Shown here: positions 5,682-32,848 of the stretch, in pieces
Layout of the letters: every line of letters starts with the position of its first letter
Position numbering within the stretch: the stretch's first letter is position 1
IMG/VR virus record: IMGVR_UViG_3300029181_000137
Reading direction: 5' to 3' (one strand)
Length of the DNA: 34,216 nt
DNA from: a virus
Taxonomy: Duplodnaviria > Heunggongvirae > Uroviricota > Caudoviricetes
Translations under genes and position numbers: made by a program
The notes under the pieces: model-generated
Told to the model about the DNA's origin: nothing
Database searches by the model: none
What the model saw: the letters and a program-made list of their open reading frames with translations, nothing else

Positions 5682-7514
5682 CTACCAAAATCGGGTATAG
5701 CCAACATCGTGATTTATATCAATGCCACTGGAGCGTGTTTCCGTAACCCGCATACCTGGTGGCATATTTATAAATGATACCTTGATCTCACCATCAACTT
5801 TTGGCGCAGAAGCTTTGTTAATCATGAAGGGATTCGAGCCTGTGGCACCGGAGGCGTTGTTTGACTGAGCCAGATCCACCGCCGGATAAGGTGTGTATCC
5901 CCGCGCCGGTATTCCCGTCCCATAAGCATCATAAGCACCCGCGCCCCACTGCGCAGAGTTAATGGCATCGACCGTGTCACCAGAACTGTCGGTAAACCAC
6001 TCAATAATTGGCTTCAGCTTGTCCCACATATCCTGAAACCACTTAACAACCGGCCCCCAGTTATTGATCACCATCCCCAGCGGCGACCAGGCAAAAACTT
6101 TCTTAAGGAGTTCCCAGCCAGCCTCAAAATAAGGACCAATGGTTTCCCAGAGTTTCTTAAAATAAGGTCCGACAACATCCCAGTTAGTGATAATTAATCC
6201 CGCAGCCAGGGCTATCGCCGTCGCAATCATGCCAATCGGCGTCATCGACATGATCCTGCTGACAATGCTGATGGCACTGCCCACGCCCATCAATCCCAGT
6301 TTCAGAATCGCAAGACCGGCAGCAAGCCCGACGACGCCGCGAATAACCCGGGGATTTTCATCCGCAAACTTCGTGAATTTCTCCCCCAACTCCCCCAGCC
6401 ACTGCGTGATGTTCTTAGCGTCACCAGAAAATGCGCCGCCAATAGCCGCAAGGCCGTTGGTTGCGGTCCCCGTCATTGCCTCCCACAGGTTGGACAGCGT
6501 ACCAAGCTGTGCCTGAACACGTTTATTCAGGCTGGCCTGTTTATTCATCTTCTGCTGGATCTGATCGTAGCCATCCTTTCCTTTATCGATCAGCGCATTG
6601 ACCACCTGAAGGGTTTCGGCGTCATCACCAAATATTGCCTTAAGTACACCAGTTCGTTTAACGTCGGTCAGTTGTCGCAGCTTTGCCAGTTGCCTGAACA
6701 TGTTATCAAGACCGCCAAAACTCCCTTTGCCGTCAGTAAAATCGAGCTGTACCCCGAGTTTCTGGCGGGCCATGATTTTATTGACGTCCCTGATTTTCTT
6801 AACGCTTAATCCGGACTGGATAACTTTTCGCAGGGCGTTACCTGCCGACTCCCCGTTCATCCCCATCTGATCCATCATGACGCTGATGGGGGCAAGGCTC
6901 TGTGCAGCCTGAAGACCGTCCTTGTTCACCATCTTCAGAACAGAGCTGGTTTTAGTGAAGAAGGACAACATGTTGGTATCGTCAACGCCCAGATAAAACG
7001 CCTTCTGGATAGTGTCGAACAGCCCCATCATGTCTTCTGACGCCGTTCCGGTAGCATCCTGCATCTTTGCGGAAAACTCAGCAGCCGCTTCCGGTGTTTT
7101 TTTCAGTTGTACCGCAAGATAAGCTGTCGCTTTACCCACACCACCCAGAATGTTTTCTGCCGGGATCCCCTGACGCACCAGCATCTGCATCATGTTCTGG
7201 AAATCAGCCGTTGTACCGGGTAGCTGGTTACCCAGGCCAATAGCCAGTTTATTGATGTCCTGAAAGCTCTTTCCGACCTCGCCGTTCGCATCCATCATGG
7301 CGACTTTCAGCCCGGTGGCGGCGTTTTCCTGATCGGCATAAGATTTCAGGGAAAGCGTCAGACCCGCTGCCAGTCCGCCACCAAGCGCCAGCCCACCCTG
7401 TGACGCTTCTTCCGCCTGGCGTTTAAATCCCCGGATTTTCTTTTGCATTTTCGACAGCGCGGGAGAAAGCCTGTCGACACCGGTGATCAACGCCTTAAGC
7501 TCAAATTCAGCCAT
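5682..7514 (-). CDS. Tail tape measure protein
   Basis: 610-aa ORF, Ala/Gly/Leu-rich with hydrophobic C-terminal stretch, immediately downstream of the chaperone frameshift pair. Confidence 0.85.
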   Translation of the reverse strand: MAEFELKALITGVDRLSPALSKMQKKIRGFKRQAEEASQGGLALGGGLAAGLTLSLKSYADQENAATGLKVAMMDANGEVGKSFQDINKLAIGLGNQLPGTTADFQNMMQMLVRQGIPAENILGGVGKATAYLAVQLKKTPEAAAEFSAKMQDATGTASEDMMGLFDTIQKAFYLGVDDTNMLSFFTKTSSVLKMVNKDGLQAAQSLAPISVMMDQMGMNGESAGNALRKVIQSGLSVKKIRDVNKIMARQKLGVQLDFTDGKGSFGGLDNMFRQLAKLRQLTDVKRTGVLKAIFGDDAETLQVVNALIDKGKDGYDQIQQKMNKQASLNKRVQAQLGTLSNLWEAMTGTATNGLAAIGGAFSGDAKNITQWLGELGEKFTKFADENPRVIRGVVGLAAGLAILKLGLMGVGSAISIVSRIMSMTPIGMIATAIALAAGLIITNWDVVGPYFKKLWETIGPYFEAGWELLKKVFAWSPLGMVINNWGPVVKWFQDMWDKLKPIIEWFTDSSGDTVDAINSAQWGAGAYDAYGTGIPARGYTPYPAVDLAQSNNASGATGSNPFMINKASAPKVDGEIKVSFINMPPGMRVTETRSSGIDINHDVGYTRFW

Positions 7515-26803: not shown

Positions 26804-27478
26804 ATGAAAACAATCCATGACATCCGGCGGTCTAACGCCAGAAAACTGAGAGATGGTGTTGGCGGGAATTCTTCCTTTGCCACTATGATTGATCGCGAGC
26901 CAACCCAGACCAGCAGGTTTATGGGAGATGGTGCTACTAAAAATATCGGTGACAGCATGGCACGACACATCGAAAAATGTTTCGACCTGCCTGTCGGATG
27001 GCTCGATCAAGAACACCAGACAACGAACATCACAAAAAAACCTGATGTTTCAATCACTAATAAACAAATCACATTAGTCCCTGTCATATCATGGGTACAG
27101 GCCGGAGCATGGAAAGAAGTTGGATATTCTGAGGTTGATTTGAGCACAGCAGAAACGTATCCCTGCCCTGTCCCCTGTGGGGAAATGACTTATATCTTGC
27201 GGGTGATAGGTGATTCAATGATTGATGAGTACCGCCCGGGAGACATGATTTTTGTCGATCCTGAAGTACCTGCCTGCCACGGTGACGACGTTATTGCATT
27301 GATGCACGATACAGGTGAAACCACCTTCAAAAGGTTGATAGAAGATGGGACACAGCGTTATCTCAAAGCGTTAAACCCAAACTGGCCTGAGCCTTACATT
27401 AAGATCAACGGTAATTGCTCTATAATTGGTACAGTGATTTTCTCAGGAAAACCAAGAAGATACAAAATCAAAGCCTAA
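26804..27478 (+). CDS. cI: CI-type repressor (HTH plus S24 LexA-like autopeptidase domain)
   Basis: 224 aa; C-terminal domain with GDSM motif (VIGDSMIDEYRPGDMIFVD) and downstream Lys (TFKRL); divergent from cro. Confidence 0.9.
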   Translation: MKTIHDIRRSNARKLRDGVGGNSSFATMIDREPTQTSRFMGDGATKNIGDSMARHIEKCFDLPVGWLDQEHQTTNITKKPDVSITNKQITLVPVISWVQAGAWKEVGYSEVDLSTAETYPCPVPCGEMTYILRVIGDSMIDEYRPGDMIFVDPEVPACHGDDVIALMHDTGETTFKRLIEDGTQRYLKALNPNWPEPYIKINGNCSIIGTVIFSGKPRRYKIKA

Positions 27479-27491
27479 TCAATGTTTATGA

Positions 27492-27513
27492 ACCTGCTTC
27501 GGCAGGTTTTTTT
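27492..27513 (+). terminator. Intrinsic terminator after cI
   Basis: ACCTGC-TTCG-GCAGGT followed by TTTTTTT, 14 nt after the cI stop. Confidence 0.65.
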
Positions 27514-27517
27514 ATAC

Positions 27518-27549
27518 TTGACAATGTACCTTTGAGATACATAATGTAC
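27518..27549 (+). promoter_or_regulatory. Candidate pL with OL-like operator half-sites
   Basis: TTGACA (27518..27523)-16 nt-CATAAT; two ATGTACC half-sites (27523..27529, 27543..27549) sharing the TGTACC motif of the OR palindromes. Confidence 0.5.
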
Positions 27550-27667: not shown

Positions 27668-27712
27668 TCTGGTCCCCTTCAACAAGTAACTGATAACTTG
27701 AGGAGGTGTGAA

Positions 27713-27919
27713 ATGCACAAAACAGAACCCAAAATCGTCGCGCCTGGCTACACAGATGAGGAAATTTATGAGTGGATGACAAAGAAGCTGGCAGCTATAA
27801 ACCAGCTTCGTGAAGTGCTGTCTTATCGACAGGAAACAATAGACTCCTTAAAAAAACTGGATCAGGAAATCACGGTTTTATCACAGGATGTTACTTTAGA
27901 TATTGTGCAGACAAATTAG
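27713..27919 (+). CDS. First pL-operon ORF, small acidic hypothetical protein
   Basis: 68-aa product from MHKTEPK with strong SD GAGGAGGTG; no Arg-rich motif, so not a recognisable N. Confidence 0.5.
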   Translation: MHKTEPKIVAPGYTDEEIYEWMTKKLAAINQLREVLSYRQETIDSLKKLDQEITVLSQDVTLDIVQTN

Positions 27920-28325
27920 GATCCCATTCATTTTCGTCAAAATCATCAAAGTGATGAATTTGTGATCTCCAGTCTCGATAATCTAAAAATTTCTGGGCGG
28001 TTACGCTTATTTTATCAAGCGTGAGTTCATCCTGAATTGAAAGAAGAAGTTCATCAAATTTCATCTCATTAATCTGCTTTGGCATCCAGTGATGCTTCAT
28101 CAGAATAAGGTGAACCAGAGCCTTTTTCCCATTCAACTGATTATAGGGAGTGCCGAATTTCTTCCGGTGCTCATGTAAGACAAGGTCCAGAAGAGTAAGT
28201 AATGTTGCCCTTGATTCAACTTTACTTATTTCGACTGATGACACTACCCCACTGATTTCAATGCCCCGATACTTTCCAACATTTTCACAGTGGGATTTGT
28301 ACAACGTGTAGATATTACCGGACAT
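27891..28325 (-). CDS. AT-rich hypothetical protein in the immunity region
   Basis: 144-aa ORF, about 35% GC by eye, good SD (AAAGGAAAAG), convergent with and overlapping the 3' end of the pL-proximal ORF. Confidence 0.6.
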   Translation of the reverse strand: MSGNIYTLYKSHCENVGKYRGIEISGVVSSVEISKVESRATLLTLLDLVLHEHRKKFGTPYNQLNGKKALVHLILMKHHWMPKQINEMKFDELLLSIQDELTLDKISVTAQKFLDYRDWRSQIHHFDDFDENEWDPNLSAQYLK

Positions 28326-28340: not shown

Positions 28341-28392
28341 GTTGTTGGGGATAACCAGATTAACCGAATCCTTGTTGTTGGGGAATAACCAG
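28341..28392. repeat. Two direct repeats upstream of the 144-aa gene
   Basis: GTTGTTGGGGATAACCAG (28341..28358) and GTTGTTGGGGAATAACCAG (28374..28392), 15-bp spacer. Confidence 0.5.
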
Positions 28393-28655
28393 GTCCACCT
28401 CGCCTGATGTGGCTAAAAGCAGGCACATAACAGCTAAGTATTTTCAACCAGAGAGAATTCTTAGCGTTGTGGTGAATGCGGCTCAGCGCACGCGGGTTAA
28501 GGTTGAGGCTGACAGTCGACCTTCTGTAGATACCCACCCGCCTGGTGTGCAACCTTCGCCAGGCACCGGGAGGCACCCGGCACCACAACTTTATGCTGTG
28601 TGTAGTCCTGGCGGTACCAGCTTGTACTCTTGCTTCCGGCTGGTACCGTCCTTTT

Positions 28656-28745
28656 TACAAAACAGAGAAGAGCATCACCGGACGACGGGCTCATAACCCA
28701 ATCCATCCGGGCGGCTGCCACCGCAGGTGTTCTTCTCTGTTTTGT
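28656..28745 (+). ncRNA. Long structured RNA element in the early-left leader (function unknown)
   Basis: 18-bp stem ACAAAACAGAGAAGAGCA (28657..28674) with TGTTCTTCTCTGTTTTGT (28728..28745); the single non-Watson-Crick position is a G-U pair only on the + strand transcript; 53-nt GC-rich interior with sub-hairpins. Confidence 0.4.
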
Positions 28746-28793
28746 GGAGAAACTAATCGGCCTTGCAGGGTCGATATGATGAGGAGCAGCAAA

Positions 28794-29156
28794 ATGGCTA
28801 GCGAACGCAGTACTGATGTGCAGGCATTTATCGGGGAGCTGGACGGCGGCGTATTTGAAACCAAAATCGGCGCAGTTCTCAGTGAAGTCGCTTCCGGTGT
28901 GATGAACACGAAAACCAAAGGTAAGGTCTCACTCAACCTGGAAATCGAACCATTTGATGAGAACCGTGTGAAAATCAAACACAAACTCTCATATGTTCGC
29001 CCGACTAACCGCGGGAAAATTTCCGAAGAAGACACCACCGAAACGCCGATGTATGTCAATCGCGGTGGTCGCCTGACTATTCTGCAGGAAGACCAGGGAC
29101 AGTTACTGACTCTTGCCGGTGAACCTGACGGAAAACTCCGCGCAGCAGGTCGTTAA
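28794..29156 (+). CDS. yfdP: YfdP-like prophage protein
   Basis: 120-aa product from MASERSTDVQ with GAGGAG SD; first of five consecutive genes whose lengths (120/274/178/120/101 aa) match the CPS-53 yfdPQRST set as I remember it. Confidence 0.6.
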   Translation: MASERSTDVQAFIGELDGGVFETKIGAVLSEVASGVMNTKTKGKVSLNLEIEPFDENRVKIKHKLSYVRPTNRGKISEEDTTETPMYVNRGGRLTILQEDQGQLLTLAGEPDGKLRAAGR

Positions 29157-32772: not shown

Positions 32773-32848
32773 TGGTGCCGATAATAGGAGTCGAACCTAC
32801 GACCTTCGCATTACGAATGCGCTGCTCTACCAACTGAGCTATATCGGC
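32773..32848 (-). tRNA. thrW: tRNA-Thr (anticodon CGT), integration target
   Basis: Minus strand reads GCCGATATAGCTCAGTTGGTAGAGCAGCGCATTCGTAATGCGAAGGTCGTAGGTTCGACTCCTATTATCGGCACCA; anticodon loop ATTCGTAAT; encoded CCA end. Confidence 0.9.

What the first reader, a model, noticed from the sequence alone, without database searches (positions are those of the whole stretch)
28656..28745. Long RNA stem in the early-left leader, with strand-specific G-U compensation
Two 18-nt arms pair perfectly on the + strand RNA; the one non-Watson-Crick position is G-U, which pairs only in the + (pL-direction) transcript, arguing for selection on RNA structure rather than a DNA palindrome. The 53-nt interior is GC-rich with further short helices. 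It lies about 50 nt upstream of the yfdP-like start in an operon with no recognisable N protein, so it could be a processing site, an RNA-based (put-like) antitermination element or a translational regulator.
Basis: partly seen in the sequence, partly recalled or inferred. Interest (0 to 1): 0.5.

Follow-up and report, generated by a model that had tools for sequence, protein, structure and literature searches.

The report
Phage leader RNA mimicking initiator tRNA
The long stem is real and is the closing helix of a widespread, uncatalogued phage RNA structure whose invariant tip copies the anticodon arm of the bacterial initiator tRNA; it sits in the untranslated leader between a small-RNA terminator and the first early-left gene, and what it does there is not yet known.

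Summary
Observation confirmed and extended. Window 28652-28750 (+) folds into a 25-bp helix (P1) that encloses a three-way junction: P2 at 28678-28710 and P3 at 28711-24 (-50.3 kcal/mol, z = -7). In 42 distinct homologues, 96.8% of pair cells are paired, against about 50% for slid controls. Ten pairs change on both sides. P1 has 71 G·U cells and 0 A·C cells, so selection acts on the + strand RNA. The 21-nt tip GACGGGCUCAUAACCCAAUCC is the conserved core. Fourteen of its nucleotides, including three G:C pairs and the CUCAUAA loop, equal the E. coli tRNA-fMet anticodon arm. P1 starts in the U-tract of the terminator of an STnc100-like sRNA and ends 43 nt before the yfdP ATG. The element is in 46% of complete E. 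coli genomes. It also occurs in Salmonella, Klebsiella and Enterobacter phages, where short-P1 forms follow tRNA genes ahead of lysis genes, and in an Acidobacteria prophage. In K-12 e14 a decayed copy is annotated as protein YmfH. It has no Rfam family, is not a tRNA, and has no HK022 put homology. Best guess (about 0.35): a tRNA-derived leader module whose long helix is an RNase III-type processing site or clamp. The rival is that the initiator-tRNA mimic engages the translation machinery. Function is untested.

The parts
28436..28659 (+). STnc100-like small RNA immediately upstream (context, not the element itself)
   Evidence: Rfam RF02076 gives 41.5 bits, E = 3e-7, below the gathering score of 47, with a full-length match to the model. 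The family is known as a prophage sRNA (bioRxiv 10.64898/2026.05.13.724894; PMC5331693).
28610..28656 (+). Intrinsic terminator of that sRNA: stem 28610-28620 with 28640-28651, and U-tract 28652-28656
   Evidence: Read from the sequence and seen in the fold in context. The simple scan missed it because its loop exceeds 8 nt. It aligns to the terminator of the STnc100 model.
28652..28676 (+). P1, 5' strand (25 nt). The first 5 nt are the terminator U-tract.
   Evidence: Folds. Covariation on alignment A2.
28726..28750 (+). P1, 3' strand (25 nt), ending in the conserved GUGGAGA
   Evidence: P1 has 0 A·C cells against 71 + 122 G·U cells.
28678..28710 (+). P2 arm. Lower stem CCGGA/UCCGG, then G-C and A-U pairs, an AC/AAUC-type internal loop, and GGG/CCC (28687-89 with 28697-99) closing the 7-nt loop CUCAUAA (28690-28696).
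   Evidence: The lower stem occurs in at least 10 fully compensated versions across the family. The tip is the conserved core.
28684..28704 (+). Conserved 21-nt core GACGGGCUCAUAACCCAAUCC. The 14 nt CGGGCUCAUAACCC are identical to the tRNA-fMet anticodon arm.
   Evidence: Pattern scans. The tRNA-fMet sequence was verified at 100% in all 5426 E. coli genomes, median 4 copies, annotated tRNA-Met.
28711..28724 (+). P3 hairpin GCGG-CUGCCA-CCGC. In the family it varies in length and sequence and is sometimes absent.
28756..28775 (+). P4 hairpin (8 bp, loop UGCA) between the element and the ribosome-binding site. A hairpin is kept at this place in relatives, with other sequences.
28781..28796 (+). 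Shine-Dalgarno GAGGAG (28781-86) and the yfdP start codon (28794-96)
   Evidence: (annotated yfdP in identical genomes)

Best explanation
The stem is the closing helix (P1) of a conserved, cis-encoded structured RNA module found in the untranslated leaders of temperate-phage operons. The module is a tRNA-derived three-way junction. P1 plus P3 stand in for the acceptor/T limb. P2 stands in for the anticodon/D limb, and its tip is an exact copy of the initiator-tRNA anticodon stem-loop. In this window the module is made only on transcripts that read through the terminator of the upstream STnc100-like sRNA.

My most likely mechanism is that the 25-bp P1 helix, which swallows the terminator's U-tract, is a substrate or clamp for the host double-strand RNase III. 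Cleavage would separate the sRNA part from the yfdP-xis-int mRNA. It would fix the 5' end of that mRNA, and hence its stability and translation, and would release or isolate the tRNA-like core. This would parallel what RNase III does in the lambda N leader and in the metY(tRNA-fMet)-rimP-nusA-infB leader.

Shown: the structure, its selection on the + strand RNA, its family, its position and its tRNA-fMet-like tip. Inferred: RNase III cleavage, the direction of any effect on expression, and what reads the invariant tip.
For: Structure and selection:
- z = -7.
- 96.8% of cells paired against about 50% for slid controls; 10 pairs changed on both sides; 0 of 500 shuffles reach the observed values.
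- RNAalifold gives the same architecture.
- G·U against A·C is 71:0 and 122:0 in P1.

Helix length:
- In every early-left-type relative, P1 is kept at 20-25 bp by compensatory change, although its sequence differs. This is the size class of RNase III substrates.
- One subfamily has a fixed single C·C mismatch about 10 bp from the junction.

Coupling to the terminator:
- 91 of 130 distinct contexts have a T5+ run just 5' of the element.
- The smallest block shared by all BLAST classes is 28609-28756, which is the terminator plus the element.

Precedents:
- The E. coli metY-rimP leader has a long hairpin directly after tRNA-fMet. It is a documented RNase III site that releases the tRNA and starts decay of the downstream mRNA (PMC5371410, its ref. 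46).
- From my own knowledge: lambda N-leader and cIII control by RNase III, and DicF release from the Qin early-left operon by RNase III and RNase E.

tRNA derivation:
- In Klebsiella phages the same core closes a tRNA-Asn, tRNA-Arg cluster downstream of Q. There it has a 6-bp P1 followed by ACCA or GCCA.
Against: - No cleavage data exist. The RNase III RNA-seq study in K-12 lists nothing for the e14 copy in the part of its table that is held. That copy is decayed, and I expect the e14 operon to be little expressed in K-12.
- Family members with short P1 (5-12 bp) cannot be RNase III substrates, so cleavage cannot be the function of the family as a whole.
- RNase III does not read anticodon-type loops. 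The conserved 21-nt tip, kept from Enterobacteriaceae to an Acidobacteria prophage, is therefore left unexplained by this mechanism.
- A plain 'folding clamp' would explain the long helix equally well.
Confidence: 0.35

Rival explanations
1. Initiator-tRNA mimicry is the function. The P2 tip (three G:C pairs plus the CUCAUAA loop) is read by something that reads the initiator tRNA anticodon arm: the 30S P site with IF3, or MetRS. This would set translation initiation of the first cistron, through a pseudo-initiation or standby complex or through start-site choice at dual-start holins. P1 would only hold the mimic in shape.
For: - 14 of 14 nt are identical to the tRNA-fMet anticodon arm, including the three consecutive G:C pairs that mark initiator tRNAs.
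- The tip is the conserved core while every flanking helix covaries. It is kept in a prophage of another phylum (L213), as expected if the partner is universal.
- Most types sit shortly upstream of the first start codon of an operon: 30-46 nt in the early-left forms measured apart from e14 (about 70 nt), about 50 nt before holin genes, and 15 nt in L213. A hairpin lies in between.
- Summed helix lengths in the short-P1 forms resemble the two limbs of a tRNA.
Against: - In the Klebsiella GZ7 type an sRNA-like terminator and about 200 nt separate the element from the holin start.
- In the Enterobacter/Pseudocitrobacter type the element precedes another sRNA, not a coding gene.
- ST64B has loop CUCAUUA, with U at position 37.
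- No conserved complementarity to the translation start region beyond AUG itself (read by eye).
- No precedent in bacteria.
Confidence: 0.2
2. Decoy or sensor for an initiator-tRNA-specific anticodon nuclease or another tRNA-targeting defence (for example VapC/MvpT-type PIN toxins, which cut tRNA-fMet between A38 and C39). The phage RNA either soaks up the enzyme or is cut by it, which changes expression of the operon.
For: - The exact copy of the nuclease's substrate hairpin.
- The hosts of the best-known members (Shigella, Salmonella) carry such VapC toxins (my own knowledge: Winther and Gerdes 2011).
- Phage tRNAs and tRNA-like RNAs are known counter-defences (my own knowledge).
- The e14 'ymfH' clone, which is this RNA region, triggered the retron-Sen2 toxin when overexpressed (bioRxiv 10.1101/2020.06.22.160242).
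Against: - A decoy would have to compete with abundant tRNA-fMet from a leader transcript.
- It is unclear why a decoy would be kept next to terminators and start codons.
- No link to any defence gene was found.
- The retron result may come from the sRNA part or from a peptide.
Confidence: 0.1
3. Decaying tRNA pseudogene or module-boundary 'linker' kept by recombination among mosaic phages, with no function of its own.
For: - Mosaic breakpoints fall at its edges (28609, 28756, 28770, 28783).
- It looks tRNA-derived.
- The e14 copy is visibly decaying.
Against: - Compensatory changes keep three helices intact in many lineages.
- The strand-specific G·U pattern.
- The same 21-nt core recurs with unrelated flanking stems in distant taxa.
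Confidence: 0.1
4. put-like cis-acting RNA that makes RNA polymerase resistant to termination in an operon without N.
For: - It occurs in the two operons where lambdoid phages use processive antitermination (early-left and late).
- No N-like protein was recognised.
- In GZ7 it precedes a terminator.
Against: - Here it lies after the leader's strong terminator, and no convincing + strand terminator follows.
- Late-operon copies coexist with Q.
- No similarity to HK022 put regions (best hit 16.8 bits, an AT-rich hairpin).
- A three-way junction, not the two-hairpin put architecture (the latter from my own knowledge).
Confidence: 0.05
5. DNA-level palindrome (protein or recombination site), or part of a protein-coding gene (YmfH, or an N-terminal extension of YfdP).
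For: The minus strand also folds well. RefSeq annotates 'hypothetical protein' or YmfH over it.
Against: - 0 A·C against 193 G·U cells in P1.
- The interior arms are not palindromic.
- YmfH-like segments fall into 2-3 different frames in the window and in ST64B.
- Element lengths differ by amounts that are not multiples of 3 (103 to 130 nt).
Confidence: 0.02

Closest known systems
metY (tRNA-fMet)-rimP-nusA-infB operon leader of E. coli
   Same: An initiator-tRNA structure, a long double-stranded hairpin and intrinsic terminators packed into the untranslated leader of an operon. There, RNase III cuts the hairpin, frees the tRNA and starts decay of the mRNA (PMC5371410 citing Regnier and Grunberg-Manago 1989; locus L290).
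   Different: metY is a real, complete tRNA followed by a separate hairpin. Here only the anticodon arm is tRNA-fMet-like and the long helix encloses it. There is no sequence homology beyond the anticodon arm (10 bits).
RNase III sites of phage early operons (lambda N leader, cIII, sib; T7 R sites; DicF release in the Qin dicB operon)
   Same: A long helix in an early-left leader between a regulatory RNA element and the first gene. A host RNase is used to process or tune expression (my own knowledge).
   Different: Those sites are plain or internally looped hairpins without a conserved tRNA-like junction. Cleavage has not been shown here.
tRNA genes and tRNA-like RNase P substrates in phage operons (tRNA clusters downstream of Q in Stx and Klebsiella phages; P1/P7 C4 RNA)
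   Same: Same places in the genome. The GZ7-type member closes a tRNA-Asn, tRNA-Arg cluster and ends in ACCA or GCCA.
   Different: Not a tRNA. ARAGORN (standard and mitochondrial modes) and the Rfam tRNA model reject it. It has no D arm and no T-loop. The window's member has a 25-bp P1 and no CCA.
HK022 putL/putR antiterminator RNAs
   Different: Different architecture and position. The covariance model finds no match in HK022.
tRNA-mimicking regulatory RNAs (thrS operator, plant-virus tRNA-like structures, IRES anticodon-codon mimics)
   Same: An mRNA-embedded copy of a tRNA anticodon arm near a translation start (my own knowledge).
   Different: No partner is identified here, and none of these mimics the bacterial initiator tRNA.
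STnc100 / PasD prophage sRNAs (Rfam RF02076)
   Same: Physically adjacent. They share the terminator's U-tract and travel together in many phages.
   Different: This is a separate structure. The STnc100 model ends at 28659, where P1 begins, and the element also occurs without the sRNA (L170).

Membership tests
tRNA | Cloverleaf recognised by tRNA detectors or the covariance model | tested here: not met
   ARAGORN finds only tRNA-Thr at 32773-32848 in the window. It finds nothing at the element in 6 loci. Isolated elements give no credible call even with relaxed or mitochondrial settings. The Rfam tRNA model does not hit it.
tRNA | Anticodon arm: 7-nt loop with U33 and a purine at 37, closed by a stem | tested here: met
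   Loop CUCAUAA closed by GGG/CCC. The 14 nt are identical to E. coli tRNA-fMet.
tRNA | Acceptor end with 3' NCCA, a T arm with a T-loop, and a D arm | tested here: not met
   In the window, P1 is 25 bp and is followed by AACUAA. The P3 loop CUGCCA is not a T-loop. There is no D arm. Only the Klebsiella-type relatives end in ACCA or GCCA.
HK022 put antiterminator RNA | Sequence and structure similarity to putL/putR | tested here: not met
   Model R1 searched with filters off on HK022 20000-40578. Best hit 16.8 bits, an AT-rich hairpin at 6441-6494, next to the annotated IS903.
HK022 put antiterminator RNA | Lies promoter-proximal, upstream of the terminators it suppresses | tested here: not met
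   It lies directly after the leader terminator 28610-28656. Only weak terminator-like sites follow on the + strand.
HK022 put antiterminator RNA | Increases readthrough in cis | not testable with these tools
   Needs transcription assays.
RNase III substrate | About two turns (20 bp or more) of mostly regular double helix | tested here: met
   25 bp with 0 mismatches in the window. 20-25 bp kept in all 42 early-left-type relatives.
RNase III substrate | Cleavage by RNase III in vitro or in vivo | not testable with these tools
   No data. The K-12 RNase III RNA-seq tables held have no ymfH or xisE entry.
Intrinsic terminator | GC-rich hairpin followed directly by a U-run | tested here: not met
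   The P1 3' strand is followed by AACUAAUCGG and is not listed by the scan. The real terminator is the hairpin before it (28610-28656).
lambda-type nut site (boxA + boxB + N) | boxA, a boxB hairpin, and an N protein in the operon | tested here: not met
   No N-like protein (Pfam). In most relatives the P1 3' strand carries a boxA-like UGCUCUU (UGUUCUU in the window), but it is locked in the helix. The P4 loop UGCA is not boxB-like.
STnc100 (RF02076) | Reaches the Rfam gathering score | tested here: inconclusive
   The neighbouring region 28436-28659 scores 41.5 against 47 bits, E = 3e-7. The element itself is outside the match.
Protein-coding gene (YmfH) | Reading frame conserved among homologues | tested here: not met
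   tblastn of e14 YmfH gives pieces in 2 frames in the window and 3 frames in ST64B. Every + frame of the homologous block in the window contains stops.

The most novel reading that the evidence does not exclude
Temperate phages of several bacterial phyla carry, in the leaders of their early-left and lysis operons, an RNA that impersonates the initiator tRNA: an exact anticodon arm with the three G:C pairs, on a tRNA-shaped three-way junction. It acts through an initiator-tRNA reader. It either docks in the 30S P site (with IF3) to govern start-codon use of the first cistron, or it titrates or reports on an initiator-tRNA-specific enzyme such as a VapC-type nuclease or MetRS. That would be the first initiator-tRNA mimic in a bacterial or phage mRNA.
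Probability: 0.25. Interest if true: 0.9.

Novelty: new variant of a known kind. Interest (0 to 1): 0.62.

Why it matters
The element is not a curiosity of one prophage. A near-identical copy is present in 2488 of 5426 complete E. coli genomes, with up to 5 copies per genome. Relatives occur across Enterobacteriaceae phages, in human-gut phage contigs and in an Acidobacteria prophage. Despite this it has no Rfam family. In RefSeq it is left blank or called 'hypothetical protein', and 'YmfH' in K-12.

If the helix is an RNase III site, it adds a further host-RNase checkpoint to the lysis/lysogeny circuitry of N-less lambdoid phages. It would also explain how an sRNA gene and the xis/int operon share one transcript.

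If the conserved tip is read as an initiator tRNA, it opens a directly testable question: whether phages manipulate or sense translation initiation through tRNA-fMet mimicry. It would also mean re-reading results attributed to the 'YmfH protein', such as triggering of a retron toxin.

Tried and rejected
- **Rfam, whole window at gathering score and three local E-value searches.** There is no family for the element. The only hits are chance miRNA or hairpin matches.
- **P1/P7 c4-type antisense RNA.** I suspected this from the BLAST hit to P1. The hit lies in the ban operon between upl and tciA, not in immI, and it concerns the sRNA part only.
- **Complement of the loop elsewhere in the window.** GGGTTATGAGCCC with up to 3 mismatches gives 10 matches against 7.4 expected, including the element's own minus strand. 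There is no partner.
- **Loop pairing with the upstream sRNA or with the yfdP start region.** The UUAUG in the window's sRNA is not kept in phiNP or ST64B. In ST64B the loop change A37U has no compensating change. Pairing to start regions reduces to AUG itself (read by eye).
- **Relaxed 18-nt pattern in one genome per species.** Outside Enterobacterales almost all hits are chance matches, many apparently inside coding sequence, and none lies in a tRNA gene. They do not show breadth. The exceptions are real members with compensated stems (L213, L218, L223).
- **Anti-Shine-Dalgarno switch.** The P1 3' strand CUUCUC could pair with GAGGAG. This is generic pyrimidine/purine complementarity, and the 25-bp helix would have to open. 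I kept it only as a possible consequence of cleavage.
- **Leader peptide starting at the GUG or AUG of GUGGAGAA.** There is no ribosome-binding site, and the frame and length are not kept.
- **boxA reading of UGCUCUU.** See the membership table.
- **Literature.** I searched for STnc100, ymfH, yfdP, tRNA-like, initiator-tRNA mimics, xisE plus RNase III, and the core sequence itself. Nothing describes this element.

Full report
**1. The observation**

The sequence at 28656-28745 is as described. ACAAAACAGAGAAGAGCA (28657-74) pairs with TGTTCTTCTCTGTTTTGT (28728-45) over 18 positions, with one G·U (G28672·U28730).

- **Fold.** Folding 28650-28750 gives -50.3 kcal/mol. Dinucleotide shuffles give -26.3 ± 3.5 (z = -6.97; none of 200 as stable). 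The complementary strand gives -46.2 kcal/mol (z = -5.5).
- **Helix length.** The helix is 25 bp: 28652-28676 with 28726-28750. Its lowest five pairs are the U-run 28652-56 against GGAGA.
- **Interior.** The interior is an ordered three-way junction:
  - A28677 is unpaired.
  - P2 is 28678-28710: CCGGA/UCCGG, then G-C and A-U pairs, a small internal loop, and GGG/CCC closing the loop CUCAUAA.
  - P3 is 28711-24: GCGG-CUGCCA-CCGC.
  - A28725 is unpaired.
- **Context.** The same structure is kept when 205 nt of context are folded.

**2. Surroundings**

All of these lie on the + strand:

- a cI-type S24 repressor (26804-27478; Pfam);
- its terminator and a near-consensus promoter (27490-27545);
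- a region that matches the prophage sRNA family STnc100 over the full model at 28436-28659 (41.5 bits, just below the gathering score of 47; E = 3e-7);
- that sRNA's terminator (stem 28610-20 with 28640-51, U-run 28652-56);
- the element;
- a small hairpin P4 (28756-75);
- GAGGAG (28781-86);
- the yfdP ATG (28794), followed by yfdQ (DUF2303), an HD phosphatase, DUF551, xis and int. The int gene abuts tRNA-Thr.

P1 therefore begins inside the terminator's U-tract, and the element exists only on readthrough transcripts. No N-like protein is recognisable. No convincing + strand terminator follows within the operon.

**3. Relatives**

- **Spread in E. coli.** The 103-nt element is present at 80% coverage or more in 2488 of 5426 complete E. 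coli genomes, with up to 5 copies. It is annotated 'hypothetical protein' or not at all.
- **Phages with the region.** It occurs in SfV, SfIV, SfII, ST64B, phiNP, F1055, mEp460, cdtI, many Stx2 and Stx2c phages, and in the e14 element of K-12. There the ORF 'ymfH' is drawn over the sRNA plus the element.
- **Shared block.** BLAST coverage classes break at 28609, 28756, 28770 and 28783. The block common to all classes is the terminator plus the element.
- **Wider scans.** Exact-pattern scans for the core GACGGGCTCATAAYCCAATCC found the following:
  - more than 120 viral contigs;
  - Citrobacter, Enterobacter, Kosakonia, Leclercia, Mixta, Buttiauxella, Raoultella, Serratia and Pseudocitrobacter genomes;
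  - human-gut phage contigs;
  - an Acidobacteriaceae bog MAG prophage next to a glucosaminidase (L213).
- **Chance hits.** Hits of the relaxed pattern in other phyla were chance matches, many apparently inside coding sequence, and are discounted.

**4. Structure under selection**

- **Pair counts.** On 42 distinct early-left-type sequences (A2), 96.8% of pair cells are standard pairs. Versions with partners slid by 1-3 columns give 47-55%. Ten pairs show changes on both sides. No shuffle out of 500 reaches the observed pairing or covariation.
- **Independent prediction.** RNAalifold predicts the same three helices without being given the structure.
- **Strand asymmetry.** P1 has 71 G·U and 0 A·C cells in its core. 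The U-tract extension has 122 and 0. Model R1 scores 123.8 bits on + and 43.3 on -.
- **Not coding.** YmfH-like segments fall in two frames in the window and three in ST64B. Element lengths run from 103 to 130 nt in steps that are not multiples of three.
- **What varies across family types:**
  - P1 varies in length: 5-6 bp, 12 bp, or 20-25 bp.
  - The lower stem of P2 occurs in at least ten fully compensated versions, for example CCGGA/UCCGG, CCUGAUG/CAUCAGG, CUGUCUG/CGGGCAG, CUCCAAUCG/CGAUUGGAG and GCGUG/CACGC.
  - P3 varies or is absent.
- **What stays fixed.** G-AC-GGG-CUCAUAA-CCC-AAUC-C stays fixed.
- **Caveat.** Because I found relatives by exact patterns, the invariance of the core is partly built in. 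Two members found by BLAST rather than by pattern differ in it. ST64B and F1055 differ at one loop position (CUCAUUA). The defective e14 copy differs at four.

**5. What the core is**

- **Match to tRNA-fMet.** CGGGCUCAUAACCC is identical to positions 28-41 of E. coli initiator tRNA. I checked that sequence: it is 100% identical in all 5426 genomes, with a median of 4 copies, annotated tRNA-Met. The three consecutive G:C pairs next to the loop are the hallmark of initiator tRNAs (established knowledge).
- **tRNA-like context.** In Klebsiella phage GZ7 and relatives the same core closes a tRNA-Asn, tRNA-Arg cluster downstream of Q. There P1 is 6 bp (GGCCUG/CAGGCC) followed by ACCA or GCCA. P1 plus P3 and P2 have roughly the lengths of the two limbs of a tRNA.
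- **Other types.** These sit after a terminator and about 50 nt before a holin-lysozyme cassette (L009).
- **Not a tRNA.** ARAGORN and the Rfam tRNA model reject it. No Rfam family matches it.
- **Conclusion.** The element is best described as a tRNA-derived three-way junction that has kept an initiator-type anticodon arm.

**6. How it may work**

Three facts constrain the mechanism.

- The long P1 is specific to some contexts. There it is kept at 20-25 bp by compensation, the size of RNase III substrates. One subfamily has a fixed C·C mismatch about 10 bp from the junction.
- The element is coupled to a preceding terminator in 91 of 130 distinct contexts, and to tRNA genes in 9 more.
- In most types it lies a short, fairly constant distance upstream of the first start codon of an operon. 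In the early-left forms I measured by eye from the printed flanks, that distance is 30-46 nt whether the gene is yfdP or rdgC. The e14 copy is the exception, at about 70 nt before xisE. A hairpin lies in between.

My preferred reading (about 0.35) is an RNase III-type processing helix or clamp. It would separate the sRNA from the early-left mRNA and define that mRNA's 5' end. The closest precedent is the metY(tRNA-fMet)-rimP-nusA-infB leader, where RNase III cuts a long hairpin next to the initiator tRNA, frees the tRNA and starts mRNA decay. The lambda N leader, cIII and DicF are further precedents from established knowledge.

This reading does not explain the conserved tip, and it cannot apply to short-P1 members. 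The main rival (about 0.2) is that the tip is read as an initiator tRNA, by the 30S P site with IF3 or by MetRS, to control initiation. A decoy or sensor for tRNA-fMet-specific nucleases (about 0.1) and a functionless tRNA relic or recombination linker (about 0.1) follow.

The put-like antiterminator reading is unlikely (about 0.05). The position is wrong, there is no HK022 similarity and the architecture differs. The DNA-palindrome and protein-coding readings are refuted as far as sequence allows.

**7. Novelty**

I found no description of the element. Literature searches on the flanking names, on tRNA-like and initiator-tRNA mimics, and on the core sequence itself returned nothing relevant. 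The recent survey of STnc100/PasD sRNAs treats only Rfam-known structures in the flanks.

It is a new RNA motif of a known general kind: a structured phage leader element, tRNA-like. Its initiator-tRNA anticodon arm is the unusual feature. Function remains to be tested, and the experiments are simple and listed above.

Noticed in passing
window 28436-28659 (+): An STnc100-like sRNA with its own terminator lies just upstream. It scores just under the Rfam gathering score (41.5 against 47 bits). Its 5' part resembles an unannotated stretch of the phage P1 ban operon (AF234172 70071-70206), and similar stretches in P7 and SJ46.
   Followed up: partly
window 28341-28358 and 28374-28392: Two direct repeats, GTTGTTGGGGATAACCAG and GTTGTTGGGGAATAACCAG, sit upstream of the sRNA and downstream of a minus-strand ORF. 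They could be a regulator binding site or part of the sRNA promoter region. Unexplained.
   Followed up: no
L001 3576-3887 (E. coli K-12 e14, 'ymfH'): The annotated protein YmfH overlies the sRNA plus the element. Its reading frame is not conserved in homologues (pieces fall in 2-3 frames), so it is probably not a gene. The e14 copy of the element carries 4 substitutions in the otherwise conserved core (GACGGGUUAAUAACCCGACCC). A 'ymfH' overexpression clone was reported as a trigger of the retron-Sen2 toxin RcaT, so that effect may be due to RNA.
   Followed up: partly
window 27490-27545 (+): The terminator after the cI-like gene is followed at once by a near-consensus promoter, TTGACA-16-CATAAT (11 of 12). 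This is likely the early-left promoter. Between it and the element lie a 73-aa + strand ORF (27698-27919) and a 144-aa minus-strand ORF (27891-28325) with its own minus-strand terminators. Neither ORF has a Pfam match.
   Followed up: no
window 28756-28775; L167, L140, L017: A hairpin P4 lies between the element and the ribosome-binding site (loop UGCA, GGCA or GUGCAG). In Citrobacter-type relatives P3 and P4 are nearly the same hairpin (GGCGGUUGCAGUCGCC and GGCGGUUGCAGCCGCC). This hints at a repeated protein-binding site or a duplication.
   Followed up: no
L138, L158, L196 (Pseudocitrobacter, Enterobacter): In a variant the element lies upstream of an STnc100-like RNA rather than downstream. 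Its P1 3' strand runs into GUUGUGGUGAAUG, the start of that sRNA. The window's GUGGAGAA after P1 resembles GUGGUGAA at the start of its own sRNA, which suggests a repeated module.
   Followed up: no
L213 2531-2707 (-) (Acidobacteriaceae MAG) and L275/L284 (bog metagenomes): The same 21-nt core, with unrelated, fully paired P2 (9 bp) and P1 (12 bp) and no P3, sits 15 nt upstream of a start codon in a prophage-like region next to a glucosaminidase. The family therefore reaches far beyond enterobacteria.
   Followed up: partly
window 28777-28796: Two in-frame ATG codons (28777 and 28780) precede the annotated yfdP start, giving M-M-R-S-S-K-M. The frame is open back to 28545, so the true start of yfdP is not certain.
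   Followed up: no
L255, L263, L278, L252: In several late-operon members the gene after the element begins with a Met-Lys-Met dual-start motif typical of lambda S-type holins. A hairpin that sequesters the Shine-Dalgarno sequence lies just before it.
   Followed up: no
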